Positions 4,286 through 41,900 of a stretch of DNA of 64,000 nt are shown here, piece by piece. Every line of letters starts with the position of its first letter. Position 1 is the first letter of the stretch. Both the position numbers and the translations under genes were made by a program. Source of the DNA: Chrysomallon squamiferum (lineage: Eukaryota; Animalia; Mollusca). The DNA lies in NCBI GenBank assembly GCA_012295275.1, contig CM022668.1, positions 8,184,001 to 8,248,000 on the forward strand, given 5' to 3'. The notes under the pieces were generated by a model that was given only the letters and a program-made list of their open reading frames with translations, searched no databases and was not told the origin of the DNA.

Positions 4286-5515
4286 GATAATAAAAAGGAA
4301 GATATAAAAGGAGGTGATATTACAAATAGTAAGTGAAAGATGTAATCAAGAAGGATTAAGTAAAAAAACAACGTGAATGAGTGATGAGAAATGCAAATAG
4401 CAGATAGAGAGACAGATAAGTAGAGTGAATCACTGAAAGAATGGAAAAAATGAAGCATGAAAGAGAATGAGAATGAGAAAAAATGCACAAGTAAACACAC
4501 GTCAGAATGAATAGCATATAAAACCAGAAGAAAAGACAAGAAAACAGAAAGATAAACAGGCAGACAGTATTTATTTATGTATCTATTTTATCTGTAATAT
4601 ATCTTTATTTCTATCAGATATGTATTTAATTTTATCTGACATGTTTAAAACTACATCTAACATGGCTGCCATCACAAGCCATAATTACATGAGAAAATGT
4701 TGTGTGTAAATAAATGTTACTCTCCATCACTCAAGGTTATAGGAACAGACACAACCTTGAACATGCTAGAAAATAGCAAATATACTATTAATGAAGCAGT
4801 GACTGTTCTGTTTATATAATAAACCACCTTTACAGATGGAATTAAAATTATTATTTTGTATATATATGTACAATTTAAAAATAAATTCACTCATTTCTTT
4901 TTTTTTCTTTTGTGTTATCATTTTTTGTATTGTCAACAATAAAAATGATAAACCAAACATCACCTTTAATAGGACATTTCTTAATTTTACAAGGGATAAA
5001 ATATCAGTTATTTGTTCAAAATAATTTTAAAAGTTTAGTAACAAGACTTCCATAACATATATGTTATTCTGCACCAAATTGAAAACTGAATTTGAAAAAT
5101 TTCAAGTAATATACTTGTATGTTGCTATGTGCACTTCAAATTATGAAAAATATTTTTAAATCAATGAATAGCTGCAATTAAGTATATACAGAGAAACTGA
5201 ATATACCCTCTCTGTTAACTATTATTATCAAATCATCTGCAGGAAATTTAAATTTAAAAAAAAGGTCATGTAGAATGTAAAATACTGAAACAAACCAAAT
5301 CTCTCTCTTCTGTTCAGTAAACATACTTCTAGGGAAAACAGTATATCTAAATTCTGAAATATCTACATTTTAATAATGTGTTGAAATGAAATCTCTACCA
5401 TGGTTACTGTTATTATCTGAATAACATCTGAATGGCCAATCTGTGTTTAGAATTAAGATTAGTAAAGTATTATTTAAAACTGAAATGGAATATTTTTGTA
5501 TCAAATTAAATATAC

Positions 5516-5566
5516 CTCCTGCTCACTGCTCCCACCACTAGAATCGTGTGAATGGACATCTCCCAT
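5516..5566 (-). CDS. Candidate alternative first coding exon (MGDVHSHDSSGGSSEQE) at the end of a ~1-kb putative 5' exon
   Basis: Kozak-like AAG-ATG-G, upstream in-frame TAA, GAG|GTATAT donor in phase 0; upstream 5567-6500 is complex, UTR-like sequence ending at a TATA box. Confidence 0.6.
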
Positions 5567-6359
5567 CTTTGTTTAGTTGTACCAGCTTTTCACTGACAAC
5601 ATTAACATAGACAAATCAGCTACATCCACACACAGCAGCAGCAACAACAACATCAACCATTTCTGCTACCTCCCGAAATAACTCTGTGTTTCAGACATTC
5701 ACCTTTGACCAGAAAATTTTCAGCTAAAAGCATGTTATTTACAAATATTTTCAAGAAAATTTCACACATCTGCTTAGCACATCACTTCCACAGACCTGCG
5801 TCTGCTCTTCTCTTTTTTATTACGTCTGCTACATTCAAGTTCGTTTTGCTACGTAATATACAAGTGTTTGTTTGTCTGCTCTGCTTATAATTTTCTGCTG
5901 CTTAATTCCACATCAACACTGTTGATTTCAGAATAGCCAGAGGAACATGCAACAGCTACTACATCCAGTTATATCAAGCCATTTCTTCTGCCCTCTCCTA
6001 TCAACGTGCTGCAAATTATTTCTGCTTTTTACCAAAGTTGCTTCAAATGAAGACCAAGTCGTTTTCTTTGCACAGATGATATATTTCAGCCAAGTTTACA
6101 CTCAACCAGCAGCCCCTGACTAAATAACACTTGTCTGCCATTTCCCTTGTCTTATGTTAAATAGCCTAACCTTCTAAGAAGAGCACCTCCTTCACTCTGA
6201 GTAGTAGTAATAACAACAAATACAGCAACCAATAAAATCACACAACACTAGACTTAATCAGACACTGGAAGTTACAGTCCTTTTTGTTTTTTAAATACAT
6301 ATGTTTCTGTATCTACCACCATCCTCTGTTTAGAGGTTTTAAATCTGTGACACTTAAAT

Positions 6360-6560
6360 ACTGATCGTTTCTGCGATTAATAGTTAAGAATGAGCAGAAT
6401 ATGATGAGAATTAAGTCCAGTCCTAGCTGAATGGCGGAAAGCAGACCAGAATGCGAGTTGCAGACATGGGCAGCAAGCAAGCCGTAATTTGATGAACGTT
6501 CTTCGTGCTATTTATAGCAGAAGTCAGTGGCAGGCAGGCGTCTTGGGTCCAGTCAAACAG
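6360..6560 (-). promoter_or_regulatory. Candidate internal promoter with overlapping TATA box and MEF2 site (CTATAAATAG, 6517-6508)
   Basis: Minus-strand GCTATAAATAGC is both a TATAAATA box and a perfect CTA(A/T)4TAG MEF2 consensus; about 8 CpG in about 190 bp against a CpG-poor background. Confidence 0.5.
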
Positions 6561-7230
6561 TAGGCTGTTAGAGCAAGTAAAATATACTCCACAGTTACAG
6601 GAAAAATACTTCTACAAAACACCATAATGTTATCAGCATCTTTGTATCTGAATCCATTTTTGTACAAGCTGATAACATCTCCAAAGTAGAAATCTATATT
6701 TACAATCTGTCTGCCTGTCTGTCTGTCTGTCTGTCAGTCTGTATTCTCTTTCTCTCACTCTTTTTCTGCTTTATTTATATATATTACTAAAACACGGTTT
6801 TTGAAATTAAATACAATAACATTTTTATTAAAAAAATTCTGTTTATCAAATGTGTTTTATAACCCCAGAAATATACACCATTAAAGCATCAAAATATCTA
6901 TAATATGACTTTATAACCAAACTATGTAAAATTCATTCTACTTTAAATTGTTTAGCTTTACAATAACATCATTTACAAATCAATTAAATTTGTTATAGCA
7001 ACAATAAATATAAATATAGGTTTCAATAAATCGATAAAAATAAAATGTACCCCAATATGTCTGCCTATAAAATGATGTCTGCTGTAAATGAAAAAAAAAC
7101 TTAGTTTCTTTCTAGTAACAAAAATTAGAAAAATATCAGACAAATAAAAAACACATTCTCATCCTTGTTTTTTTCTCAGAAAGTAATCATTTAGCTATTA
7201 ATGCTAATTTAAAATAGCAGTTGTCCATCA

Positions 7231-7374
7231 CACACACACACACACACAAACACACACACGAACAAAGATAAAAAAAAATAAACATTAAAAATAGATATAA
7301 AATTAGTATGAACACACACACACAGACGTACAAAGATAAAAAAATAAATAAACATTAAAAATAGATATAAAATT
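7231..7374. repeat. Short tandem duplication containing a (CA)n tract
   Basis: CACAC..ACG.ACAAAGATAAAAAA..AATAAACATTAAAAATAGATATAAAATT occurs twice. Confidence 0.8.
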
Positions 7375-8711
7375 TTCTGACACTTTTATGTCACATAAAT
7401 ACACTATCTCTTCAACTTTCTTTGCCCAGCTTTCTAATCCTATAGACACCTAAATGTTGTTCATTTTCTGTATATGATGGTCATAGATTTCAATCTCTGA
7501 CATCTAGTTTAGATATCATAATTATCAGAAACTCAAATTAAGTTCAAAGTTCAAGAGTCAGTAAAATTTTGTGTTTATTCTTAAATGTTTTCAAAATGCT
7601 GCTATTATTTTGTAAAAAAAACAAAACAAAAAACAAAACAACTATAATAATAGATACATTTTATGCTGAGATAATATATATGAAATTTAAAAAATAATAG
7701 TAATAATAATAATAATATTTAAAAAAATGGTTGTAAAATATGATTTCTGGAGCATGTATAAACTATAGTGTTTATTGAAGACTGGTTTGTCAGAATTTTA
7801 CAGTTTTGAGATCTTTGGTTCCAGTGTATGCGTTATAAAGTGATGGCCTCTAAGAGAGAAAGGTTGCAAACAGGAAGAGAAGTGTCTGAAGTGGAACATA
7901 AATAGGTTCAGAGACAGAGGGTAAAGGAAAAAGAAAAAAAAGAGAGAGAGAGAAGACCCTAACCCAAGAGAGACTTTATTATTAGATACATTATTAGCAA
8001 CGTCAACATATATATATATTAATCCAACATGATAATAACATTAAACTAAAATAATATTTATCATTTAACCCAGAATCTTACCACACAGATATTTAATATT
8101 CAGAAACTTAGTTTGTCAAGTTTCACACTGAAGACAGGCAGGCTGTACTTTAAAAAGTTTAAACACTGTACAATTAGTATGAACAATTTAATGCTGTCTG
8201 TGGTCGGTAAAAATATACACATCATTTGAGCTTAATTTAATTTTCACCTAAGACATCAATGCTCCTTATCTCATTAGCTGGTAGCAGACTTTACATTCTG
8301 GTTACGGCAGGTGAGTGAAAAACTGCATATGGTTAAATACTCCAGTAAGTAAAGATATCTTCTTTTCTCTTTTAATTGTTTAAGACTTTGTTGGATAGTA
8401 TTGTGTATTGAAATGATATGGATTAGTACAAGAGGATTAATGTAAATTATTAAAAAACACAGCTTATTTAATTCCTGATTAATGATGTCGTAAGTTTTTT
8501 CATAATATTTATATACATTGATTTTAAATCAGTGTTAAGAGGAATCTTGTTCTGATGTGACAGTTACAATGCTTTTATAGCAATAATAAAATTATAAATG
8601 AGTTTGACTACACAATTTTTCCAATGTGTCTATATTTGTTTTTGATTCTCTCTTTTTATCATTATCTTTGTATGTCTGTCTCAATATATTTACATATGTA
8701 TGTGTGTGTAA

Positions 8712-8712
<1 letters not shown>

Positions 8713-8776
<64 letters not shown>
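8713..8776. repeat. (TG)n microsatellite
   Basis: Perfect dinucleotide run. Confidence 0.97.
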
Positions 8777-8778
<2 letters not shown>

Positions 8779-9256
8779 TGAGTGAAAAAAGAAATACATA
8801 TGTTATGTTCCAGAATATTTAAAAATAATTAATAATGAGCAGATAATGGTGACAATTTAAATAATAGAAAAATATAAATGAATTATAAATATCAAAGGTT
8901 AGTCTGAAGTAGGTAAACTAACGTCACAGATAAAACTCGTTATGTAAAGTTAAAATAGAAGGATAAAACAAATCCATCACTATCATATATATTGCATTAA
9001 GTAAAATAATTGGTTTGGAAAAGTACACTGTATTTGTAATGACTAAATATTCACTGTACCTGTCTATTTCATATAATAATAATGAAATAAACATAATGTG
9101 ATGATAATAATGATTGTGATAGTGGTGGTGGTAACAGTGACTACAATGATGATAATGTTGAAGTAGCTGAATCTGTTAACAAAGATTTTCATATATAAAA
9201 AATTGTAAATGATGTCAGTATAGTAGATGTTATCTTAATAATAATAATAATAATAA

Positions 9257-9294
<38 letters not shown>

Positions 9295-9365
9295 CAACAA
9301 CAACAGTAACAGTGATAAATAAATATATAATTTAAATAATGATAAATAAAGAGTCTAGAGCTTAC

Positions 9366-9554
9366 CAAGCTGTCTCTGGATGAGGCTGCATAAGGACGAC
9401 AACTTTCAGGAAACTCTTCAGGTTCTGCGACAACACAAGAACACAGTTTAGCCATAGACATCTTGTGCCTTCCTTTCTTGTATCTCTTGCCCAACATAAC
9501 TTTTATCAAAAGATGTAACCAGAGCTCTAGTGACGATAGAATCGCACCAGGCAT
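9366..9554 (-). CDS. Candidate alternative first coding exon of a GEF2-only Trio isoform (MPGAIL...MLGKRYKKGRHKMSMAKLCSCVVAEPEEFPESCRPYAASSRDSL)
   Basis: Complex, GC-richer open frame with several ATGs and an upstream in-frame TGA; TTG|GTAAGC donor in phase 0 (same as the 31865 exon), followed abruptly by an intronic (TTA)n tract. Confidence 0.65.
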
Positions 9555-11859
9555 TCTGGGAACATTAACAGAACATCAAATGCTGGTTTCACCTCTTTTT
9601 CTCCATCCAGTATATAAATTTTTTAACCATCTATACTGTATGTTCTGTGGGCAGGTTTTGAACCTAAGACCTTTGTTGAAATATCTGCCCTCACCATAAG
9701 ATGAAGATGTTTTATTTCGCTGTATTATTTAAAAAAAAAGATTATATATAAATCCAATATGTACATAACAAAAAATGATATTTGTTTTAATTTATGTGAA
9801 AAGAATTCCAATGTTTTGCATCTTGATACTGGTCCAGTTCACTGGTGTTTTTGTTGTTTTATTTTTAATTGTAAAAGAATCTAAATCAAAGCTTCCACTT
9901 TCAGGTTCTAAACCAAAATCACTTTGGAATTACAGAGCAACATATAAAATCTCAGTCTGCATTATAGGTTGAAGAGTTTTGGTTATAGTATATACAAGAA
10001 TTTTTGTGCATAAAAAACCCCCAGATTATGTTTCTGTTAATTCATGGAAGCAGGATTCCTGTTTTATCCATCTTTATCTAGGTTTTTCTGGAGCATCTAA
10101 ATTATTGAATCTTCATGCATATTTTCACCCAAAGACATTTCACAAACTCAGCCAACATTTTATAAAACATCCAGATGATGCGTATTTTGATTCTGAAAGA
10201 CTATTAGTTACATGTACATATTATACATGTAAATACACAAATGTAGTTAATCTCTGTAAGAAGAACTGCACAATATCAAGTGTGTAGACTTGTGTTGGTG
10301 TAGATTCTTGTAACTGTAAAACATGTACTCAAACAGTTTCTTGTTGTCATTTCTGAATCTCTGATTTCACAATTCTCTACTAGGTTTCTGGTATCTGATT
10401 TTCAAACACTGATCTGAAAATGGATTTTATACTGCAACTACAAAATATTTCTTCTTATTCATAACATCTCAGTAGATTTTATTCAGCAGCTTTTTTCAAT
10501 GTTTTTTATGTTATATGCATAATTCTTCAATTGCTAGTGTATCTCTTTTTTCAATATATTTATGCTACATTATAGTTCAATAAATTTTGATATTGCTGTC
10601 TCTCTTTATACTGTTTCATGCTGTACCAACACAATATTTTAATTTGTTTGTGATTTTTGTATAGTCTTTTAATCCAAACTTGAATTAATTTAATACTGAT
10701 AAAAACAATATTTTAAAGGATCTTACAATCTCAACAGATTTTAAAAAAATTATTCTTTAGTACTAAATAAGTTTTATATTGTTGCTGCATAATATTTATA
10801 CTAATTTTAATTAATAATAATTATTATTTTAAACTTAAGTTTTACTGATAGTTCAAAAATATTTTAAACTGAATTAATTTTCAACCAATTTAACACTAAA
10901 TTTAATATTGTTTTGCCAATTAGTTGTTTTTTTCTGTCTTCTTTTCTTGTTTTTTTAATTATTTTAATTTTATTCTCCTTATATTGTCTATACTACTAAA
11001 CCAAATAAAGTCTTTCACCTTTGGAAATCAATCTAGCAGATCCAAGATTTAATGTTGTTGAGCTTGCGTTTTTCACACCAGTATCTGTTTTAAATACAAG
11101 AACACAAACACTGTCCTAGGAATGTTGGTTTATACAAGACCAGTAACCATAGATCTGAAATCTCTGCTGCATTGCCCATGGTCACTTATGTTACATGTAT
11201 ATATTTTGACAAAACTTTCAGTATATCCGTTCCAGAATGGCTCCATTGAGGTGTTGAGCTATACAGAGAAAAAGAACAGCATGTAGTTACCAACATAGCC
11301 TTTACATTGATTATTACCATTACATTAACAAAAGAAGTTTTAAACCTTCTGAAGTCATCTAGCAATACACTGCACTCTCTGGTAACTTTATCTTAGTAAA
11401 ATTTAGGGCAACTTCTGAAACAACTAGCAGCATATTGCACTCTCTAGTAAAATGACCCAAACAACAATTTCACCTAAAGTTGACATAATACAGTCTTGGA
11501 ATAATATACCTTAAACCATGAAATACAACTTCTAATGTCAACTAGCTTTTTTCTTTTTGCATGTAGCACTTTCTCATAACATCATCTGTCTACAATTTTA
11601 TATAAGTAGGATTAAAATTATCCAAGAAACTGAAGAAATCTAGCTAAAACACTATACATTTTATATATTTTAAAAACTTGACTGTGTGCTGTATTTATTA
11701 TGAAGGAATACATAACCTATATATTGCACTTTCTGTTCAATCCAAAATTGTATCATTCTTTTATCACTTTTAGCTTAATCCAACCTTTATGAATTAACCT
11801 GTACACTGTACACTCAAATCTTTTAAATATACTCTGTTAGTTTACAACTTTCTAAAATC

Positions 11860-12760
11860 AAATAATGAATTCCAAGAATTTTCTATGATGCCAAAATTAC
11901 TGGACAAGTACATCATAATTTTTATATAATCCAAATTACTTTTATTTTTATATAATCCAAATACTAAGAGATTTGAAAATTTGATTAAATTACAGTAAGG
12001 TTTAAAAAGTTTTGTAAGTAGGAGCAGATTAATCTAGCTATTTCATTCTCTATTTAAACCATTCTTACAATCTGCCCAGCATTTACAGACTGATAATCTA
12101 CATAAATTCATCTAAACCATGTTCTGCTTATGTTCATAATCTAAAATCTCATTTAAACTAGATAATTGTAATCCACGAAATAACAATCTACATAATCCAA
12201 AAAATCATCCAAACCATTCTCTGGTCATCTATATAACCTAGAACTATATTTAGACATATTTAAAGCAGATTATTTGTAATCCAAGAATTTGTAGAATACC
12301 CAGTTCTAATAACTATAACTGTACAGTTTAAAAAAACAATTTAACCATTGTAAATTAGCCTCTAAACCAGATTATTTTAATTCAGGTATTTAGTTCAGTG
12401 ACAGTGGTCTGCCAATACACTGCTACCTCTGACTGCCAATACAATCTACATGATCTGTAACTTCAACTAATTGTTATCCAAGTTTAATTAAACATTAGAA
12501 CCATGTATTTTGATACAACCATGAAACTGTACTTTAATCATTTATGTATAAACTTTATCAATACCAAATTACTGTAATCCAAGAATCTGTTGGAATACTG
12601 AAGTCATGCAGCAACTGCTTGGTTAATCTAGATGAACATCATCAAGTCAGATTAATGTAATCCAAGAATCTGTTAGAACCTTGAAGTCACATAGCAAGGA
12701 CTTGGTAATCTAAATCTCAAAATGATGAAAGAGTATTGTAATACAACAGTTTGTTAAGAC
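11860..12760. repeat. Highly decayed tandem array
   Basis: Recurrent TAATCCAAGAAT / TAATCCAAA and AAACCATT motifs. Confidence 0.5.
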
Positions 12761-12894
12761 ATGTTCCCAACTAGATTTTGTTTCAGAATGCCTCGATATG
12801 GACTGAACAGATATGTTCTGTATCATTTATTATCTTCTTAATAGCTTCTTTAATCTTTTTTACTTTTTAAGTATGGAAGATAACATTATCTACC

Positions 12895-12932
<38 letters not shown>

Positions 12933-14848
12933 TATTTCTTTTTCTATATATAAAATTAATTAATATTAATATTTGTTTTTGTATATAAAAAAACCTTTTA
13001 GCTGAGAAAATTTAATCTAATCAAAATGTCATATGCAATCTGGAGAAGCATGAAAGAACATTAACATTTTTGTAGTTAGAGTCTGATGAATCTGACCCAG
13101 TTCTTCCTGACAGAACATTAACACACTGGGAATATTATGTAGACTTGTAGATTTACAGGAATATCTTAGGGAGATTTACGCCTCACATTTATTTCATGTA
13201 GGTCTGATACAAAATAACAAGTATTCATGAAGTAAGGCAATAACCAACTGTGCCAAATTCTTTCAGTGTGTCTAACAAATCAAGTTTTCTTTGCTAATAA
13301 GGATAATAAAACCAAAAATAATCAAAATGATGGGTGGATGTCCCAAGCAGCAACATTTTAGTTAGAAATTAGCTATTTTGTTTATGAATACAAATGTAAG
13401 AGTTCAAAAATAAATTGTAGATCAACCTCTTAAGTGATAACATACTAATAAAATTTACTCATTTGTTAACTGATCCAAAATCAATAAAAACTAAAACAAA
13501 AATATATTTATTAATATTATTTATTTATTTATTTATTCATTATTATTATTGTTTTTTGGATAAATCCAAAACCAAACTATAGCTGAAATTCTCAAAACTG
13601 TGAAAGATGTCAGATTTTTGTAAAATGTTTCCTAAAACTATTTAATAACAACTAAAAATAAAAAAAATGTACTAAATAAATAATAATACAATGACAATAA
13701 ATAAATAAATAATAATAATGATGATGATGATAAACAAAAACCTTATTTATTTTTTCTAGGACTGAAAACCTCTGTACAAATATCATTTTGACAAAGAACA
13801 CACTTCGAGGCATGAGAGCACAGAAGACTTTGATATTTCTTTGAAGCAATAAATCTTGTATCAGATAGGTAGGCTAAGTATGATGAACCTGCTGCACATT
13901 TTGGTTAGTAAGAAAACAGAACTCAAGTTAACGATAATAGAAATAAGTCAAGGATATGGGCCACTTCAAAAATAGAGTCTCAGTATCTGTTAAACTTGAG
14001 TTTGATTGTGGTATGCTCTTCAGTTATTCTTACTTTTCTTTGTTTTTTAAAATTATTTTTGAGTTTATCTATTTAAAAGCACAATAAAAATAAGTCTTCA
14101 TAAACTGTGACTACTTTGATTTGGTGTGGTGGGTTGTTCCCAAACTATTTTTATTTATCACCTATCAAAAGGTACAATAAAATAAATCTACGTAAGCTAT
14201 GAATACTTTGATTTTTGAAGGCACTTTTAAAATTATTTTTCTTTATATATCAGATGATAAACAACTGCCAAAAGAATAATAACATAACTGATCAGTATAT
14301 TCCTGTGATTTTTATTTAAAAACCCTCCATTATATTTTATTACTATTATTATTGTTGTTGTTGTTTTGTTATTATTATTGTTATTATTATTACTATTATT
14401 ATTATTATTCTACTGTCAAAGGAGATAAAATATTTATTTTTATGAATAGTTCTTAAAAGTTTTATAACTGAATTTTTATTTTTTATTTATTTTTAAAAAA
14501 TATTTTAAATAATGTTTTTGCACTGATGCAACAAGGACTCAAGTACTTGGTTTAATCTTGCTTATGACCATAAGCTGTCCAAATTACTTACTTTTCAAAG
14601 ATAAGAGAGAAATGTTAAAAAAATAAATAAATAAAAAAATGTTTCAAAATCTGTGTCAGTGGATAAGCTAATCAATTACTGTTATTTTTGGCATGTCAAG
14701 AAGATATCAGAGATATTTTTTCGGATGCCACATTTTCCTGTCCTGTTGTTTCTGGCAATACTTTTCTTTTCTGCTTTTACTCAACACCTACTGATAACGA
14801 GTTTCAAATTTACTTTTGGAAATTTAACATCTGGTTTAGTCAAGGAAT

Positions 14849-14962
14849 TAGAAAGAAAAAGAGAGAAAGATAAAGAGACAGAGAGAGGGGGAAGGGAGAG
14901 AGGGGAGGGGAGAGAGGAGGAGAGAGGGAGGGAGAGGGGGAGAGAGAGAGAGAGAGAGAGAG
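14849..14962. repeat. Polypurine G/A tract with several GGG+ runs, ending in (GA)n
   Basis: About 110 nt almost entirely A/G on the + strand. Confidence 0.9.
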
Positions 14963-15599
14963 TAACTTACATAAATCATAGTAAATATCCTGATGTACAA
15001 GGTCATTATAAGTAAATTTAGGTTCTGGACCAATTTTACTCATACTTACATAACATTTAATGTTTATTTTTTAAAATTAGAAATAATAATAATAATAATA
15101 ATAAAAAACCCCAAAATAACAAAACAACAATAAGCAAACTTTAGTTAGTATAGATATAAGATATATAATTTTTCTGCAGTTCAGCATGATAATTTATCAG
15201 CAATAGGTCAAACACAATTTATTTGTAGAGTAAATATGGTATATTTATCATTCCATATATTTATACAAATACACATTACTTTTTCTCTGAATAAAATTTC
15301 ATCAGATTGATCACTGATATAATATAATGGAGTAAAACATAAATAAATGTATGTATGGAGTGAAGTAATAAACATATGCATGGGGGAAAAAAAAAAAATA
15401 ATAAAAAAAAAAATAAAAAAATAAAAATTAAATAAATAAATAAAAAACAAAACTAAAAAACATTAACTTAAACATCTCATATTTCAAAAAATACAGTTTT
15501 AAACTTTCTAAAATGCATATGACTGAATACACAGATTTTACCATTATTGGTCAGAATTTCAAATTAATATCTCTAATACTTTTTACATAAGGCCAAAAT

Positions 15600-17260
15600 C
15601 AAAACTTGTTACTAAACAATAAATAAATACCAACAACATAAACAACTGCTTACATATTTGATAAGAAGTACTTATATTAATCAGTGATATTAATCTATAA
15701 ACACTTCTTTCATAATCAAACAAATCTATTCAATATATGGGCTTTATGTTCATATCTACAAACAGTTCTATTTATTAAAAATAAATAAAACAAATCAGAG
15801 CTTTCATATTTCATTAAAATCATCTGAATTACACCACCATAATGATCTACAAATAATCCAGCATACTAGTGTAAGCCACACATACAGTATATATTTTTTT
15901 CTAATGTATAGTCAGTTATTTTTGTAAAAATAAACCCCCAAAAGAAACAACTGCTTACACATCTGAGTAGAATTACTTATTAACCTAATCTATGACAGCA
16001 ATCTGTAAATAATTATTTCATAACAGCAAAAATCTGAGTGCAGTGTACAGGTTTTTAAATTCATACCTATATAGACATAAGTTTACATTTAAAATAACAT
16101 AAAATAAATTTATAGGAGAAACAAAAGAGAACTTATTTGATGAAAATCAGCTAAATTAATCCACTATAATGAATAATCATACATTAATTACAGTATAAAT
16201 CAGTAGTAATATCATATCTATAAACAGATTTATTTGCGTGTCTGTTAGTTAAAGGAACAGAAAACAAGCTGATATATTTGATAAAACATCTTCAAGAAAT
16301 AATGGTCATTAATAAAACAGAACACAGCATTTTTCAAATACCTACAAACCTATTTTATTATTTAATTTCTTAAACAGGAAAACTCATCAACTAAACAACA
16401 ACAACAAAACCCCATTTCACATATTTGATAAGAATCACCTAAAACCTTCCAACATAGTACACAAGATTTATAACAGTAAAACCTGCCTATTCAAACCTTA
16501 CTACTCCTCTATTTTATCTGTTTGGTTTGACAACCTAAAAAAACAACCAACATAAATATATTGGGTTGGTACAGAAGTTCATAGTATTAATTCACGTGAA
16601 CTTTTAAGACAACATTTAGATGTTTGTACATAGATTTATTCAACAAAATAATTATGTGCCATTTTGTTCCACTACCTTTTTCCATTTCTGAATCAGCTTC
16701 ATGATTCCATCCTCCAGAACTTGGCATCTTTCTGTGTGATGAACACCACAGTTATTTCCAACCCAATAAATATTCGATTGAAAATAAGTAAATTAATCCA
16801 CTACACTAATCTTTAAAAGTAATTTCTATATCATAGGACAACCTATATAAAGAAAAAACATTCTATTCATACTCTTGTATTTATCCCTTTTCTTAAAATA
16901 AAAAACAAAACAAAACAAACAGCTACACATGTAATCGCATTGGAATCATGCAGATTAATCTATAACAGTAGTCTGTAAGTAATTCTACATACTGGGACAA
17001 TTTATTTCTCATTGTAAATTAATCCACTGTGGTGAGCCATAAATAATTTCTACTGGAACTGTTTGTATCAAGAATACAATCTTTCTTTTCACACCAATTT
17101 TAAGTATTAACCTTTTTTTAACAACTTACTAAAACAAGCAACAACTTACATATTCAACTGGAATCGTGCAAATTATTCCATCACAATAATTTATAAATAA
17201 TTCTACAAACCGGGACAGTTTACATCCAGTTACATAAAGAGTGCAGTGTACTGTCTTTAT
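15600..17260. repeat. Decayed long-period (~150-300 bp) tandem array
   Basis: Recurrent AAACAACTGCTTACA(T/C)AT.TGA...AATCT(A/G)TAAA blocks at 15641 and 15945, and weaker copies downstream. Confidence 0.55.
16676..16702 (-). CDS. Candidate alternative first coding exon (MKLIQKWKK)
   Basis: ATC-ATG start, AAG|GTAGTG donor in phase 0; complex sequence island inside a decayed repeat region. Confidence 0.35.
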
Positions 17261-17319
17261 AGTGACATCTATAATTTATTTACATACTGATGTTTTTTAT
17301 CTTTTCAAAAACAAAATAA

Positions 17320-17800
17320 AATTTTCTTTCTACTATCGGCTATGGTAAAACGGAAATTCGACACTAGGTAATTATGCAGTTGTGGCAACATATTGCATCT
17401 CAAATCAACCGTCAAGCTTTGTGACACATTTCACCAATACTAATGTAGACATATGAATCACTCTGCATGACAACCAGAATTTTACAACTATTATTATTAC
17501 AATCATTACAATTTTTTATTACTGTATTCATTTTATGTAAAATATATTACAATATGTTTGTTAGTAAACTAGAACTGACCTTTATACAGGGTAAATAAAA
17601 TTCTTGTGGATTCCGAGCGCCATAACAACGAGTAAACGAGAAGGCAGTGAGTTGTGCCTGGACAGATCAATACCCACGGACTGTGAAGATAAAAGCTGAT
17701 CAGATGGGAGAATGGCACGAACCAATGATTGATGACAGTGTATTGGGAAACCGTCAACTTTCTCAATCTCTTAGTGATGTCACAGCGGAACCACAACCAC
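17320..17800. promoter_or_regulatory. CpG-retaining island with CCAAT/ATTGG boxes, candidate intronic promoter or enhancer
   Basis: Cluster of CpGs (e.g. TCCGAGCGC, AACGAG twice, CACGG, CACGAACCAAT, ACCGTC, AGCGG) in CpG-depleted DNA. Confidence 0.35.
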
Positions 17801-20284
17801 AACAATGTCATCAGCTGCAATGATGTAGACATCCACACCTCAGTGGACTGTCTATAAGCAACTGATTGTCTGTAACTCAAACAACAGGTTTTGTATGTCC
17901 ACAGCACTGTCTATTAAATGATATATATAACTATTATTATTATTACCATTATTGTTGTTATGATGAACCATGAAACCTTTTTAAACTTGTATCCATAACA
18001 ATCAGTTATAATGAGTATCCTGTCTTTAATTATGTAATGACATATCAAGATTATTATTATTATCGGGAACACTATCCAAAAAGAAGCACTTCAACTGTAA
18101 GAAAAGAACTTCAACCAAACAAAAAAATTTATAACAAGAGTTTCATTACTCGTAATTGACTTTAATGATGTATTTTACTTATTATTATTTCTGAACTACT
18201 GATATTACTAGCTGTAAGAACAAAGCACGAAACAAATGCTTCCAATATCAGAAAATAATTTCAGCTTTACAATCCAACCTTCTGATCCACTGTATATATT
18301 ATTATGATGCAGTCAGTTTCTCAAACATAAAATCATTGATAGTGATGCCACAAAAGAATGTCATCAAACCTTCATAATGAAACATATGACAATAACATAT
18401 TCCTATATGGTGTTCCAAAGATCATATGATCAGCAGGGATGGATTCCTAGTAATAAGGAACTTATGACAGATCCCACAGAAAAGTGTCAACCACTAAAAT
18501 ACAATCAACCAGTAAGCTCCACTGAAATGATTGTCTGTGATGATGCAACCTTCAAGGACACCACCATCAATTACAATATTCCTCAAAGGCTACTGCCAAT
18601 TCTCCAAATGAAACTATAAAAACACAACCAACTGTCCAATTCAAATCATTTGGTTATCTGTAAATATATGACCTTATTACAAGAAAGCCTCAAAATGATA
18701 TTAATGTTAAAACAAAAATTCAGCTATATAAAAACAATTATCCGCAATGCTCCAACTACACCCTCATCTGAATGATATATGCATCTGCATCAATATCATC
18801 CACTACTACAATGCTTCAAAAGATGATTTCAAATAGCGAACAGGAAGTCAAGATTTCTGTAATTTGTTTTATGACTGCCAAGGTCCCAGAATCTCACTTA
18901 GCAAATCTTACTGTGGCTCTTGGACAGAAAGGAAATAAAACCACTGTACCCGTTTATTGTTGCTGTTTATAGAAGGCAATCAATCAATAGAGAGATGATA
19001 AATAAAGCTTTCTCACTTCCTATCAAATGGTCTGCAGGGAATCTTGTAATCTGGGTCAGGTTGACTTATTCACATTTAATCAAGGAAAATCTGAATATCC
19101 ATCAAAACACTAAGTGTAGATATGAAACATACACAGATGCACACATGTATATATGTGCATACACTTAGAATCCAAATGCACAAATGTATATAACTTTGAA
19201 TATATCAGCTATGTCTGTCACTTGGTGTTCTGAACAGTACAAGTTAAAAATTAATTTCTGTACTTAATTGATAACAGCCAGAGCACTTTAATAAGCTGAT
19301 AATATATTTATGTAAAGATCAATACAACTGAACAGAAACATTGTAATTATCAATGGGCCATAGACCTTTGATTCTTAAACCATGAACCACTATTTCAACA
19401 CATAAATAATTAATAGGAATTGAAATATTCAGGAAATTGTCAATTTACAAAACTGAATATACTTACTGCTTGAAATCAGAAATGATAAAGTTCACAGGCT
19501 GAAATAAGAAATGATAAAACTCACTTGAATTTAAAATACATAGTGGTTACATCTAATATAAGAGATCACTGGCTGAACCAAAATAAATGTTGGGTGATTT
19601 GAACTGAAAAACATTTGCTTACATACAATGATAAAAATGTCCTCTTGATGGAACGAAAAATTATTTGTGGAATTAAAAACTATTTTTGCCCACTGGCTGA
19701 ATTCATTAGCTTCAGCTGAAATATTAATCTGTGCTACAGATTTTAGATACTGTCTAAAGCATCATTCAATCTGTATGTGATAAAAACACTTCCAAAATTA
19801 TACAAGCTATTTCAAACATCTGATTATATGATGGTAACATAAACAGTGTATGTTCTATTTAAGCTGAAGAAGCATAATTTAATATTTATATTCATTTAAA
19901 TATATATATTTTGCTAACTGTATACTGACATACATACACATCTACATATCTGTAAAGAAACACACACACACACACACTATTTGAAGTAATACAGCAATTT
20001 CTGACAATCTGTGTTTCTTAAAAAATGTTGGCCTTTCTTCTCTTAACTTACATATTAAAATCACATATTAATTTTTGTCTGATACTAATAATATTTATAT
20101 ATATATATATATATGTTTGTGTATCTATATGTAATATCCAAATAATGATGTGATCTAGTTAAAATAGTAGTAACCTAATTTCTCATTACTCTATGCAACG
20201 TAACAGCTGGTGACCATATATCTCTAAACTTATAATAAACAATGTCAGGTGACTGTCACAAGCAGGTGATATCAGGTGAATAGA

Positions 20285-21389: not shown

Positions 21390-21770
21390 TAAGATTACTC
21401 ACATAGTTAGTTATGAAGTTTAACTGATACAAGTTATTCAAATGGTTAGTTATGAAGTTTAACAAATACTAATTACTCAAGTAGTTATGAAGGTTAACAA
21501 ATACAAGTTACTCAAGTGGTTAGTTATGAAGTTTAACAAGCATAAGTTTCTCTAGTAGTTACTTATGAAGTTTAACAAACACAAGTTACTCAAGTGGTTA
21601 GTTATGAAGTTTAATAAATGCAAGTTACTCAAGTGGTTAGTTATGAAGTTTAACAAATGCAAGTTACTCAAGTGGTTAGTTATGAAGTTTAATAAATGCA
21701 AGGTACTCAAGTGGTTAGTTATGAAGTTTGCTAAACACAACTTACTCAAAAAGTTAACTATGAAATGTAG
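21390..21770. repeat. 39-bp minisatellite, about 9-10 copies
   Basis: Unit CAAGTTACTCAAGTGGTTAGTTATGAAGTTTAACAAATG; central copies near-identical, flanking copies decayed. Confidence 0.93.
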
Positions 21771-23029
21771 CAAACAAATTTATTCAAGTGAAATTTACAA
21801 ATCCATCCATATCAATTATGACATTTATAAGCAACCACAAATTACATAATAGCTAATTATGACTTTTACAAAACAAACCAAATTACTCAAGTTATGTTTA
21901 CAAAAGTAATTAGTTGTGAAGTTTACAAAACTACTCAAGTTACCCAATTACTTTCAAGTTTTTGTAAAACAAAACAAAACAAATTAAACAGAAAATATGA
22001 GTAGGACACAGCGATAGAAAGACAGAGAAACAGAGGAAGAGACAAAATAAAATAGAACCCATACTGGAAGGGATTTTTTTTAAAGAGAGAGAAAGATAAA
22101 GAAAAAGAGAAAGATACAGACAGCCAGCCTTTGTGTACCTACACTTACATATGAGGTTGACAAACGCAAAGCAACAAGTACAAGGTAATGATATTTTACT
22201 AATGAATGTAAATCTGTCAGCACACACATTTTTTACAGTTTAGCAAAGTCAATATTTGAAACACTGACCACTGAGTAACAGCTACCAGCTATCAACCCAG
22301 TAACAATGACCTTAGCAAACTACTGTTTAAATTAGACAAGAGCATTTAACAACATCTTGCAACAGTTTTAATGGTTAATTTACTTTGTCTTTGAAATGGA
22401 ACCAAAATAGTTTGCATTTAAATTAAACTGACCTTAGCATTTCTGCACCCAATATATTCAGTTTTCTGAAACCAGATATAAATTATTAAAAACATATGAA
22501 GTAAAATATCTAACTATCAAAGGAACAAAAGTCTTTGAACTGTCCCAATTTTCTTTTTTTTTTTCTTTAAAAAAGTAAAACAATCTGAAAAAATAAATTA
22601 AAATAATCTGAAAAAAGAAGAAGAGAAGAAAATTGAAAAGAAAAAGTGGAAATGGAAAAAAAAAAATCTGCATTAATTTCTTTCATAATTTCTTCTTTTT
22701 TTCTTTCTTTTTTTTAATTTCGGAAAAAAAAGAAGGAAAATATAATACCAATAAAACAAAATATCCAAAATATGGTGTCAGTTTTAGCAAAATAATGGAG
22801 AGGGGGATTTTGTTTTTTCATTTCTATCTCTTTAGTGTAACTAGTTACATGCCAGACATCTGCTGAAAAGCAGTTTATAACTATTTACAACAGGAAACTT
22901 TCTTCCAGCAAATCAAAGCTGTCAGTATAAATGAGAAGCAGCAGCAGCAACAGTGGCCACGTTGCAATTCTGTGCACTCTTTGGCTGCAAAGATCCTAAA
23001 CCTAATATTGATATTTAACCTCCGTATCA

Positions 23030-24659: not shown

Positions 24660-24869
24660 CTGAGAAAAACAAAGCAATAACCTTGAGAAGATCATCTTAA
24701 TAGGAAGTGTGATAGTCAGGCAGATGTTGGCCAAGATGTTCTGTCAAGTAATTGTTGTTATCGGCTAGTTATCAAATCAATGGTTACAATTAACTGGCTA
24801 TGCTACTTCATGTAAACAGAAGATCCCCTCTCGGCTTGCACTTAACCTCTGACCCTGACTTAATTAACT

Positions 24870-25400
24870 TGAGGAATGTTTAATCAGTAATTTGGTGAAA
24901 GCAAAATTGTCTGTTTCTTAACTTCTGACATATACTTAATTAATTCAAGAAATATTTAATGAGCGATTCTTTGAATGCAAAATTGTCTGTTTCTTCACCT
25001 TTGATCTACACTTAATAATCTTAAATAATTAACTGGTGATTCTGTAAATGTGGAATGTTCTATTTCTTAACATTTGATCAACAATTAATACAGTTAAATG
25101 TTTAATTAGTGATTCTGTGAATGCAAAATTGTCTATTTCTTAAATGTTGATCTACACTTACTAAATCTGAGAAATGTGAAATTATTGATCCTGTAAAAAG
25201 GAAACATATTATTTCATAAACTTTGATCTAGATTTAATGTCATGAAATGTTCCATGAGTAATTCTATTTCTTTAAATTTGATCTGTACTTAATGAATTTA
25301 AATGTTTAATTAGTGATTCTGTGAATGCAAAACTGGTTCGTTACCTTTGACCTAAGCTAAATAATTCAGGAAATGTTTCTGTAAATGTAAAAATGTGTAT
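24870..25400. repeat. Decayed ~75-bp tandem array
   Basis: Recurrent GTGATTCTGTGAATGCAAAATTGTCT.TTTCTTAA..TTGATCTACACTTA, about 7 copies. Confidence 0.8.
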
Positions 25401-31864: not shown

Positions 31865-31994
31865 CTTAGCTGATACCAGTGCATTCACAACTGTCTTCTT
31901 GTCACCCTTTGCAGGCTGACCCTCAGGTGAGGACACACCCTGTTTGTCCAGTTTACCATGGCTCAGTTTACGCACCGGGTTTGTTAACCATTTT
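31865..31994 (-). CDS. trio: Trio exon: (R)[43 protein letters not shown]
   Basis: 130 nt, phase 2 to 0; matches Trio/Kalirin KWLTSPVRRLS; AAG|GTAAGT donor. Confidence 0.94.
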
Positions 31995-38900: not shown

Positions 38901-41900
38901 CAAATTGCTGCCACTCATAATTTTACACCAACCAGTACAATATTAATTAAAATATCACAAGAATTACAACAACAAAATCACCAACTACCTTGATGCAAGC
39001 TGACAAGATTCTAGTCCTTTCTACTGCATACCACTGAAGGTTAAAATGGCAATAGAGAAAAGAAAAATCAACGACAGCTAAACCCGAGCTAGCAGTTCAT
39101 ATGCGAAGTCCTCAAATCATGTCATTATTAAAATGCAACAGATTTTCATTAATAAACTCACACACAAACTGAAAATCCCTCAGAGAAGCAATAGCAAAAA
39201 CAGACTCATAAACCTCTCCAGTTTATCTAGCATTAAACAACACTGCCTGATTGTACCTTCGATTATTCTTCAAGCCCTGGGATGCAATACGAGGTAGGGG
39301 GGAAAAAAAGAAGAAAAAAAAGATAGGAGAGAGAAGAGGAAAAATCAATACCTGGCGACAAAGAAAGTTGTCAGACACATGTATTGCAATGCTGTGACTG
39401 GGAATGGGGTCTCCTGGGTAAAGGTCTTTGAGCTGCAATCATAAAGCTTTTGTGGACATCAGATTTGCTTGTATTATTATTAATCTGATTTGCTTACATC
39501 ATTAATTAGATCTTCTTATATAATTTAATCAAATTTGCTATCATTTTTTAATCATATTTGCCTTTCATTTTCATTAGGATATGCTGATAATTTAAAGTAA
39601 AATTTGATTATGTTGTTAATAAAAATTTATTACCATTGAATTATATAATGCTGTTTTAAATATAAGAATTTTTTATTATTATTAATATTTGATGATTCTG
39701 TTAAAAAGAATAACAGGTAATGTTAATCAGAATAGACTTCATCCTTGATGTCCAGTAAATAGTATCATAACAGAAAAAATATATTATTAATAGGCTCTGA
39801 TGATTCTGTCAAAGAGAACTGAGATTTCAGATTTAATTTCTCTTGTGTACACTTAGAAATTTTACAGTTGACTAATAAAACAAATGTCAGCAAAACATTA
39901 CTGGCAAAACAAGCAGACTTAATAAAATAAGAAAAATAAAATTTAAGTTTCTAGATTAGCAGTTTAAAGAATCAGTATTATAAATCCTCCAACCTCCATT
40001 TATTATATATGATCTTCACTGATGTCCCAAATGTATGTAAATTCAAATCTAGAGTTATGGTTGCCCTTTATAGAGTTGTAACAGTGTTATTTTGTCATCC
40101 ATATGTATAGCTGATGACTGGGAAATTGTCAAAATCAGGGACAACAACTACTTTCAGATTATCTCAAATGTATAGATCACCTAAGACACTGCCTAATAAG
40201 AAAAACAAGCCAAGTTCATAGTCATTTGAAATAAACCTACAAAGCATTCTCCTCAACATTATCTAGTCTGTGGGAGGTCCACTAATCACTGCCTCATCAA
40301 ATAAATGTTGACATCTAAGTTGTCACCCATTAACTTCAATGAGCATTCTTCTTAAATGCTATCCTTATGAATGACAGAACTGGCAATGACAATGGACTGT
40401 GGGTGACAATCCTATATCTGGTGCATTAACATTCTGTTTCTTACAAAAAGCAAAAGAAGCATGATGTGCTTGCCTCTCACAGTAAATTCATTTGAAACCA
40501 TCATGCATGTAAAGATATTCTATGTATGATGGAAGAATGTTTTTATCTTCTGCCTGTAAAATGTTACTTCTGTCATGACTGTTGATTCAGTCTGCCAAAT
40601 CCACAAAAAGTCGTGAATTCCTTTGGAAAGCCAGATTAATTATTGCCTCTGGAGCAATAGGTGCTACAGGCTTTTATTTTGCAGAATGATCTCACCACAG
40701 ATGTCTAGCAGTAAGGTTTGAACTGCCCTGACAAATAATGCAAGTCCCTTTTCTTTTTGAATAAAAGATCAGAGATTTATTTTTTGTAAGGGAAGAACTG
40801 TGAAAGGATTCCAGGGGAAGGGTTGCTGTCCACTGAATGCACTGTAAGAGTTCAGGCTGGACCTGGGTAACTACTTACATTTACATTTGCTGTTCTGCTT
40901 GTATAACCTTTATGTGATTGTTGTGACAAATTACTGTTATTCTAGTCCTGCTATTTTGAATGTTAGGCACTAGTGCTAATACAGTTTTGAATGTGTCTTG
41001 TATTTGTTGTGTTTCCAGTGAACAAAAACATGCTACTGTATTTGTATATCTATATGTATACATAGATCCTGTATCGGATACCCCTAGAGCTTAGCCAACT
41101 CGGGTAGTTACCCGCCCGAGACAGAGATATATATTTATTTAAAGCTGCATGAAATCCCCATATCGAACACCATAATAACAGTTGTAATTAATTATCTCTG
41201 GAGGTGCTTAATTTTGTTTTTCCATGTGTCTTTTACATAAATACAATTTGTAATGAAAAAAAGATTTAATATTTCTTTTGTAATTGTTTTAAAGATATAA
41301 TATTTGTGTTTTTGTATATACATGTATAAAGACACACACACAACAAATACAAAGACACAACAAAATTTGTTTAAACTGGATTTCTTTTCAAACCAAGGAA
41401 AATAAATAAATAAATAAATAAATAAAAATAAAATAAAAAGAATGGTTAAGTCTTAATGCCTTCTTTTCCATTTTAAATTCAATACAATATATAACATTAT
41501 TTATGAAAATAAAGTGAAATTTCTCAGAGCTGGAATTACATGAACTGTGATCAGTTTCCATAGTTTTGTGATTTATCAGGTATGTAATGTAAAATCTTTA
41601 TAAACTAAACATTCATCCAAACTGAACTTGTTATTGTTTGCTTTTGAAAAGTAAATATTCCTATGAATACATACAAATATATATTCTAAACTGACAAAAG
41701 AACAAATTAATTTTTAAACAATATAAAACATCAAATGTATTTCTGGATAAATAATTTGTATTGGCAATGACACTGAATTTTAGCTTGGTGGTCTGGGGTC
41801 ATGCCAGTGTCGGATGGTTTTCATATTTAATTAATGTCTCAAATGTCTGCATCTTTTGTTGATTTGCTGACACAAAGCTTCGCAACAAAGTGTTCATTAT

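What the first reader, a model, noticed from the sequence alone, without database searches (positions are those of the whole stretch)
5516..16777. Array of phase-matched alternative first exons giving GEF2-only Trio isoforms interchangeable membrane-targeting N-termini
Seen: the >31.8-kb intron after the [11 protein letters not shown] exon (phase-0 donor) contains at least three ATG-initiated, stop-preceded mini-frames that each end at a phase-0 GT donor. They are MKLIQKWKK (16702-16676, polybasic/aromatic), ...GKRYKKGRHKMSMAKLCSCVV...RDSL (9554-9366, polybasic plus Cys pair) and MGDVHSHDSSGGSSEQE (5566-5516, Met-Gly). Established: C. elegans unc-73 and Drosophila trio make RhoGEF2-only isoforms from internal promoters, and the GEF2 module is a Galpha-q-activated RhoA GEF. 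Inference: promoter choice here selects how the same RhoA-GEF is tethered to membranes (electrostatic, S-palmitoyl or N-myristoyl), in a variable-first-exon/constant-region arrangement like the protocadherin or UGT1 loci.
Basis: partly seen in the sequence, partly recalled or inferred. Interest (0 to 1): 0.8.

Follow-up and report, generated by a model that had tools for sequence, protein, structure and literature searches.

The report
Snail Trio's membrane-anchored short isoform
Inside a large intron of a snail's Trio signalling gene, one of three proposed start segments is spliced in RNA and conserved in a sea slug, so it likely begins a short RhoA-activating protein with a predicted fatty-acid membrane anchor like vertebrate p63RhoGEF; the other two are untested in RNA, and the overall design is already known from worms, flies and mammals.

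Summary
The three mini-frames exist as described, but ATG-to-GT frames occur at chance rate in this intron (10 seen, 10.5 in shuffles). Only B (9554-9366) is supported. RNA contigs of 3 of 3 RNA runs join its donor in frame to an exon beyond the window. Its basic-plus-Cys-x-Cys core is 18/24 identical to the N-terminal region of a GEF2-only Trio model of Elysia chlorotica. B is not a first exon in these runs: it ends a 1,048-nt internal exon behind a spliced leader of at least 1.1 kb with 28 ATGs. A (weak donor, upstream out-of-frame ATG) and C (good donor, CpG-rich upstream region) were not tested in RNA and have no homologue here. C fails the recalled myristoylation rule. Best reading: a gastropod short Trio isoform anchored by palmitoylation plus basic residues, working like p63RhoGEF580. 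C is a plausible unanchored alternative, and A is doubtful. The protocadherin/UGT1 analogy fails. GEF2-only isoforms with alternative N-termini are known (unc-73, fly trio M, Kalrn Duet, ARHGEF25). No earlier scan note on Trio turned up in four look-ups.

The parts
31865..31994 (-). Last constitutive Trio exon in the window ([11 protein letters not shown]...VSAK), phase-0 donor
   Evidence: 60% identical to Haliotis rufescens Trio P0002 residues 1658-1704
17251..18000 (.). Highest CpG peak of the window; candidate internal promoter upstream of A and of the B leader; donor-like GTAAGT starting at 17149
   Evidence: 12 CpG against 3.8 expected, P 0.0006, uncorrected and chosen after looking; not tested in RNA
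16676..16702 (-). Frame A, MKLIQKWKK; doubtful. Acceptor-like site at 16843/16842; out-of-frame ATG at 16727 reads through the donor
   Evidence: no RNA test; no significant homologue
11019..11258 (-).
   Evidence: Loose end at 10415 in 3 of 3 RNA runs; 23 letters match 11021-11043; 5' edge inferred from loose lengths 238 and 240
9366..10413 (-). Exon B as spliced in RNA (1,048 nt): long non-coding 5' part, then the B reading frame
   Evidence: Single contigs spanning 9365-10415 in X1, X2, X3; intron 11018-10414 is GT..AG
9366..9554 (-). Frame B, 63 aa: hydrophobic stretch, basic stretch, Cys38-x-Cys40; donor joined in frame to an exon outside the window that reads D-Q-T-E-Q-T-Q-N-V
9420..9491 (-). 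Conserved core GKRYKKGRHKMSMAKLCSCVVAEP
   Evidence: 18/24 identical to Elysia chlorotica EGW08_009896 (P0167) residues 109-131
5501..6750 (.). Second CpG-rich region with TATAAATA at 6516; candidate promoter for C
   Evidence: 16 CpG against 7.9 expected, P 0.007 uncorrected; not tested in RNA
5516..5566 (-). Frame C, MGDVHSHDSSGGSSEQE; plausible but untested, acidic, likely not lipidated; acceptor-like site just before 5592
   Evidence: (donor 4.7, GC 0.53); no homologue among 177 stored proteins

Best explanation
Segment B is spliced in frame to a downstream exon and is conserved in a sea slug, and it likely starts a short, GEF2-only Trio isoform whose basic stretch and Cys-x-Cys pair are predicted to be palmitoylated and to hold the RhoA exchange factor at the plasma membrane. 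Shown: B's 3' junction, its phase, its internal position behind exon E1, and its conservation. Inferred: an internal promoter (best candidate 17.3-18.0 kb) makes a multi-exon leader; translation starts at 9554 or 9497; the basic residues bring the N-terminus to acidic lipids, Cys38 and Cys40 are acylated, and the enzyme sits next to G-alpha-q and RhoA as p63RhoGEF580 does. C is probably a second N-terminus from its own promoter without an anchor, comparable to p63RhoGEF619 or GEFT. A is more likely leader sequence or chance than a coding exon.
For: Junction at 9365 in 3 of 3 RNA runs (one study), absent from X5, which spans the stretch in one piece like DNA. The next exon is open in frame and begins with Asp, as in Aplysia GADR|DST and Physella GLER|DST. 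B core against P0167: 18/24, pairwise E 4e-10; tblastn E 2e-6 against the intron; 0 of 1000 shuffles. In P0167 the motif (123) precedes the PPPME linker (258) and the DH domain (369), and the neighbouring model EGW08_009895 ends at the KWLT exon. The related Plakobranchus model P0166 best matches Trio 6d8z, then p63RhoGEF 2rgn. Both cysteines and the basic run are kept while Met32 and Met34 are not. Precedent: PMC3722567 and PMC5105084, passages.
Against: Palmitoylation and localisation are untested. Conservation rests on one predicted, partial gene model; a direct search with B found 0 of 16 candidates, the Atlas gave no usable hit, and P0166 has a different N-terminus not found in the window. 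The leader holds 28 ATGs in 1,099 nt (shuffled mean 21), so translation of B from this transcript may be poor. That the KWLT exon joins the same acceptor in this species was not tested. The MPG...E.W match at both starts is not significant (E 1.2). In PMC5105084 anchored and cytosolic ARHGEF25 isoforms activate RhoA to a similar extent.
Confidence: 0.6

Rival explanations
1. One reading: A, B and C are three coding starts under separate promoters, giving electrostatic, palmitoyl and myristoyl tethering of the same GEF2.
For: All frames are phase 0; the two highest CpG peaks of the window lie upstream of A and C; A has 4 Lys in 9 residues and a hydrophobic moment of 0.70; unspliced RNA contigs stop at 10718-10772, near a TATA-like site at 10800, which could be a nearer start for B.
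Against: The main B form has an upstream spliced exon; A's donor is weaker than all 22 reference donors; C fails the recalled myristoylation rule; mini-frames are at chance rate; the contig stops come from one study and the tool warns that a hole proves nothing.
Confidence: 0.12
2. The E1-plus-long-B transcript is mostly regulatory or non-productive: either a uORF-silenced leader, or an alternative 3' end of GEF1-only Trio, since entering E1 in phase 0 gives 42 residues and a stop.
For: 28 upstream ATGs with no depletion; E1 appears to have its own acceptor; frame 0 of E1 closes after 42 residues; fly trio M is controlled through a 5'UTR intron (PMC11321036, passages).
Against: The B core is conserved at protein level across distant gastropods, which needs translation in some tissue; the exon upstream of E1 is not identified.
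Confidence: 0.15
3. B is a real N-terminus but its basic stretch and cysteines serve protein binding or nuclear import rather than lipid anchoring.
For: No acylation data; the cysteines sit 38-40 residues in (about 123 in the Elysia model); rat Trio Duet fractionates as cytosolic (PMC5132261, passages).
Against: Basic residues next to a Cys cluster are the layout that is necessary and sufficient for membrane binding of p63RhoGEF (PMC3722567, passages), and a similar AK.C.C motif starts the Duet-like protein P0150.
Confidence: 0.13

Closest known systems
ARHGEF25 isoforms p63RhoGEF580, p63RhoGEF619 and GEFT (PMC5105084, PMC3722567; passages read)
   Same: A G-alpha-q-activated RhoA GEF with alternative N-terminal exons; one carries basic residues and palmitoylated cysteines and is at the plasma membrane, the others are cytosolic.
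   Different: ARHGEF25 is a separate gene, reported as vertebrate-only; here the N-terminus lies in an intron of the full Trio gene, behind a long spliced leader, and acylation is untested.
Kalrn/Trio Duet isoforms (PMC3541206, PMC5132261; passages read; unnamed Duet-like protein P0150)
   Same: An intronic promoter yields isoforms with only the second GEF domain; P0150 begins with a cysteine cluster resembling B's (AK.C.CV).
   Different: In P0150 the Cys segment lies before the KWLT motif; B lies after the KWLT exon. Similarity is weak (E 0.099; 8 of 1000 shuffles, one of 24 tests).
C. elegans unc-73 variants C1, C2, D1, D2, E, F (10.1101/2021.05.08.443256, PMC3280986; passages read)
   Same: Several differentially expressed Trio variants; E and D1 hold only RhoGEF2 and act downstream of G-alpha-q.
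   Different: The passages seen do not describe their first exons or any lipid anchor; no sequence comparison was made.
Drosophila trio M (PMC11321036; passages read)
   Same: GEF2-only transcript with a spliced, regulated 5' leader.
   Different: trio M includes an SH3 domain; B starts downstream of the first SH3 and KWLT exons.
Clustered protocadherin and UGT1 variable-first-exon arrays (recalled)
   Same: Alternative 5' parts joined to one constant region.
   Different: Their variable exons are duplicated paralogues, each a true first exon; A, B and C are unrelated and B is internal.

Membership tests
GEF2-only Trio/UNC-73/Kalirin short isoforms | Host gene is Trio/Kalirin with spectrin repeats, GEF1 and SH3 upstream | tested here: met
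   Haliotis Trio P0002 maps in order along 54151-31862, most exons at 60-100% identity
GEF2-only Trio/UNC-73/Kalirin short isoforms | Unique N-terminal segment spliced in frame to the constant region carrying GEF2 | tested here: met
   For B only: in-frame junction in 3 of 3 RNA runs; GEF2 identity of the downstream part rests on the Elysia and Plakobranchus models, as it lies outside the window
GEF2-only Trio/UNC-73/Kalirin short isoforms | Transcription starts at an internal promoter | tested here: inconclusive
   CpG peaks and TATA-like sites; contigs cannot show a start; the exon upstream of E1 is unidentified
p63RhoGEF580-type palmitoyl anchor | N-terminal cysteine cluster with adjacent basic residues | tested here: met
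   Cys38 and Cys40 after KRYKKGRHK, conserved in P0167
p63RhoGEF580-type palmitoyl anchor | Cysteines are palmitoylated and needed for plasma-membrane localisation | not testable with these tools
   Needs acyl labelling and imaging
p63RhoGEF580-type palmitoyl anchor | Homology to the vertebrate ARHGEF25/Duet first exon | tested here: inconclusive
   B against P0150 N-terminus: E 0.099, 8 of 1000 shuffles before correction; position relative to the KWLT exon differs; the ARHGEF25 N-terminus itself was not compared
Protocadherin/UGT1-type variable first-exon array (features recalled) | Each variable exon is a first exon with its own promoter | tested here: not met
   B has a spliced upstream exon in 3 of 3 RNA runs
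Protocadherin/UGT1-type variable first-exon array (features recalled) | Variable exons are duplicated paralogues encoding like domains | tested here: not met
   A, B and C are 9, 63 and 17 residues with no visible likeness (by inspection)
Protocadherin/UGT1-type variable first-exon array (features recalled) | All variable exons splice to one shared acceptor | not tested
   Only B's junction was laid; A, C and the KWLT exon were not
N-myristoylated proteins (rule recalled, PROSITE-like) | Gly2 followed by a permitted residue and a small residue at position 6 | tested here: not met
   C has Asp after Gly2

The most novel reading that the evidence does not exclude
Gastropod Trio encodes its own p63RhoGEF-like, palmitoyl-anchored G-alpha-q effector, and the AK.C.C anchor is shared by descent with the vertebrate Duet/p63RhoGEF N-terminus or reinvented at a different intron. 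The animal picks among anchored (B), amphipathic (A) and unanchored (C) starts through two internal promoters plus splicing of a uORF-laden leader that gates translation of the anchored form.
Probability: 0.2. Interest if true: 0.55.

Novelty: new member of a known kind. Interest (0 to 1): 0.33.

Why it matters
If B is acylated, an invertebrate single Trio gene supplies the constitutively membrane-bound G-alpha-q-to-RhoA link that vertebrates give to a separate gene, ARHGEF25, whose isoforms are reported as vertebrate-only (PMC5105084). That makes the origin of this anchor testable. It also helps explain why several gastropod annotations break Trio at this intron (Haliotis, Elysia, Plakobranchus). 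The general design is established, so the surprise is modest.

Tried and rejected
No whole genome is held, so the downstream exons could not be read. Direct protein search with B: 0 of 16 candidates at E up to 1. Atlas search with B: no usable hit. Metagenome scan with the B alignment: 1 of 596 matching stretches passed, and it reads as a bacterial ORF of 50% GC resembling a sliding clamp (my reading), so chance. No GEF2 or linker exon hidden in 1-31860. The Plakobranchus N-terminus (P0166) and the sacoglossan pre-SH3 N-termini (P0014, P0015) have no match in the window; A's likeness to their KLVQW is not significant (122 and 140 of 1000 shuffles). An acceptor-like site just before B's ATG (9556/9555) shows no loose end in the runs laid; contigs drop rare forms, so this is not absence. 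No convincing start exon between 42400 and 33340 under my filter. Literature searches for molluscan or palmitoylated invertebrate Trio isoforms (listings only) returned nothing on point; most subscription papers, including the primary unc-73 isoform paper, were not seen, and no supplements were read. Scan look-ups found no Trio note.
Full report
The locus. The minus strand from about 54150 to 31865 encodes the spectrin repeats, GEF1, first SH3 and [11 protein letters not shown] exons of Trio; Haliotis rufescens Trio (P0002) aligns in order, most exons at 60-100% identity. No genome is held, and no GEF2 or PPPM-linker exon was found in 1-31860, so the constant region is outside the window.

Observation. 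Frames A (16702-16676), B (9554-9366) and C (5566-5516) are as described, each stop-preceded and ending at a phase-0 GT. The pattern is not above chance. With a donor matrix from 22 donors picked near tblastn exon ends, 10 frames of 9 or more codons score at least 1.5, against a mean of 10.45 in 20 shuffles; at 4.5 it is 3 against 1.95; with any GT it is 313 against 230. A scores -1.9, B 1.5, C 4.7; the reference donors score 1.3-8.7. Each frame therefore needs its own evidence.

B is conserved. A direct search with B found nothing (0 of 16 candidates). Searching with the linker that follows the KWLT exon in Candidula gave 4 proteins among 46 candidates. One, Elysia chlorotica EGW08_009896 (P0167, a partial predicted model), carries GRRRKKRHKLSIAKLCSCMVAEP, 18/24 identical to B (E 4e-10 pairwise; E 2e-6 against the intron; 0 of 1000 shuffles). 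The motif precedes the PPPME linker and the DH domain, and the neighbouring model EGW08_009895 stops after the KWLT exon. The matching Plakobranchus model P0166 best hits Trio 6d8z (E 2e-122) and p63RhoGEF 2rgn (E 3e-113); P0167 itself was not searched against structures. Both cysteines and the basic run are kept, Met32 and Met34 are not, so the start is likely Met1 or Met20. Both proteins begin MPG with E.W at 10 and 12, but that match is not significant (E 1.2). The other three hits lack the motif; P0166 has a different Cys-containing N-terminus that I could not find in the window.

B is spliced, but internal. Five runs hold 9312-12900. Four were laid on 9312-10900. In 3 of 3 RNA runs (three samples, one study) a contig leaves the genome at 9365 into sequence absent from the window. 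It continues B's frame as D-Q-T-E-Q-T-Q-N-V in X2 and X3; X1 gives only 10 loose letters, which agree. X5, of unrecorded kind, spans the stretch in one piece with no such end. An Asp-first, phase-0 next exon matches Aplysia GADR|DST and Physella GLER|DST, and read-through models such as P0081 show GAER|V. The same three runs also have a loose end at 10415 that maps to 11021-11043, defining a GT-AG intron 11018-10414. So B's frame is the last 189 nt of a 1,048-nt exon. The loose parts are 240 and 238 nt long in X2 and X3, which would end at 11260 and 11258, exactly at a polypyrimidine-AG acceptor; only 23 letters were matched, so a further upstream exon is inferred. The leader has 28 ATGs in 1,099 nt (shuffled mean 21). 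Unspliced contigs reach 10718-10772, near a TATA-like site at 10800; retained intron and a nearer start cannot be told apart.

A and C. Neither was laid on RNA, and neither has a significant match in 8 homologue N-termini tested; a motif scan of 177 stored proteins found nothing for C and only the KLVQW of P0014 and P0015 for A. For them: the two highest CpG peaks of the window are 17251-18000 and 5501-6750 (mean 1.7 per 500 nt; P 0.0006 and 0.007, uncorrected and chosen after looking), and C has coding-like GC (0.53) and a normal donor. Against: A's donor is weak and an out-of-frame ATG at 16727 in good context runs through it. C has Asp after Gly2, fails the recalled myristoylation rule and is acidic. 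Both have acceptor-like sites upstream, so they too may be internal. I put C as a coding exon at about 0.5 and A at about 0.25 (judgement).

Mechanism. Inferred: an internal promoter, best candidate 17.3-18.0 kb, makes a leader spliced through E1 into B and on to the GEF2 exons. The basic run plus Cys38/Cys40 would give a palmitoyl anchor. In p63RhoGEF the first 29 residues are necessary and sufficient for plasma-membrane binding, Cys23/25/26 are required, and the anchored form engages G-alpha-q more efficiently (PMC3722567, passages). A second ARHGEF25 isoform from alternative N-terminal exons is cytosolic yet activates RhoA similarly (PMC5105084, passages), which both offers a model for C and limits the functional claim.

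Comparison. GEF2-only isoforms are known: eight unc-73 variants (10.1101/2021.05.08.443256, passages), E and D1 with RhoGEF2 only (PMC3280986, passages), fly trio M with a regulated 5'UTR intron (PMC11321036, passages), the intronic Kalrn Duet promoter (PMC3541206, passages). The unnamed Duet-like protein P0150 starts with ILAKCCCCV before its KWLT motif; its likeness to B is a weak lead (E 0.099; 8 of 1000 shuffles among 24 tests), and the position differs. Searches for a molluscan or palmitoylated invertebrate Trio isoform found nothing on point (listings only). The protocadherin/UGT1 comparison fails on two tested features.

Verdict. One real, conserved, probably membrane-anchoring N-terminus; the array and the three-anchor scheme are unproven and partly contradicted. 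New member of a known kind; interest 0.33.

Noticed in passing
window 11019-11258 (-): Leader exon E1 read in phase 0 gives 42 residues and a stop; if joined from the KWLT exon it would end a GEF1-only Trio.
   Followed up: partly
P0014 and P0015 (Plakobranchus, Elysia crispata): Models begin with a shared basic N-terminus (MVKLVQW.SRNKR) just before the SH3 exon, suggesting another internal start like fly trio M; no match found in the window.
   Followed up: partly
P0166 (Plakobranchus GFO00003.1): GEF2-only model starts with a different Cys-pair and basic N-terminus (WILYVLCPCRKHRH); not found in the window.
   Followed up: partly
P0002, P0010, P0014, P0015, P0171: Haliotis, Plakobranchus and Elysia gene models end by reading into the intron after the KWLT exon, so Trio is often split here in gastropod annotations.
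   Followed up: partly
window 9556-9585 and 5593-5620 (-): Acceptor-like sites before the B and C start codons share TGTTAATGTT..CAG; the one at B was not used in the runs laid.
   Followed up: partly
window 21395-21790 and 24841-25320: Minisatellites of 39 nt (about 9 copies) and 73-76 nt (2-4 copies) inside the large intron.
   Followed up: no
window 39001-39500 and 40751-41500: Lesser GC/CpG rises in the 9-kb intron before the SH3 exon; possible further internal promoter or repeat.
   Followed up: partly
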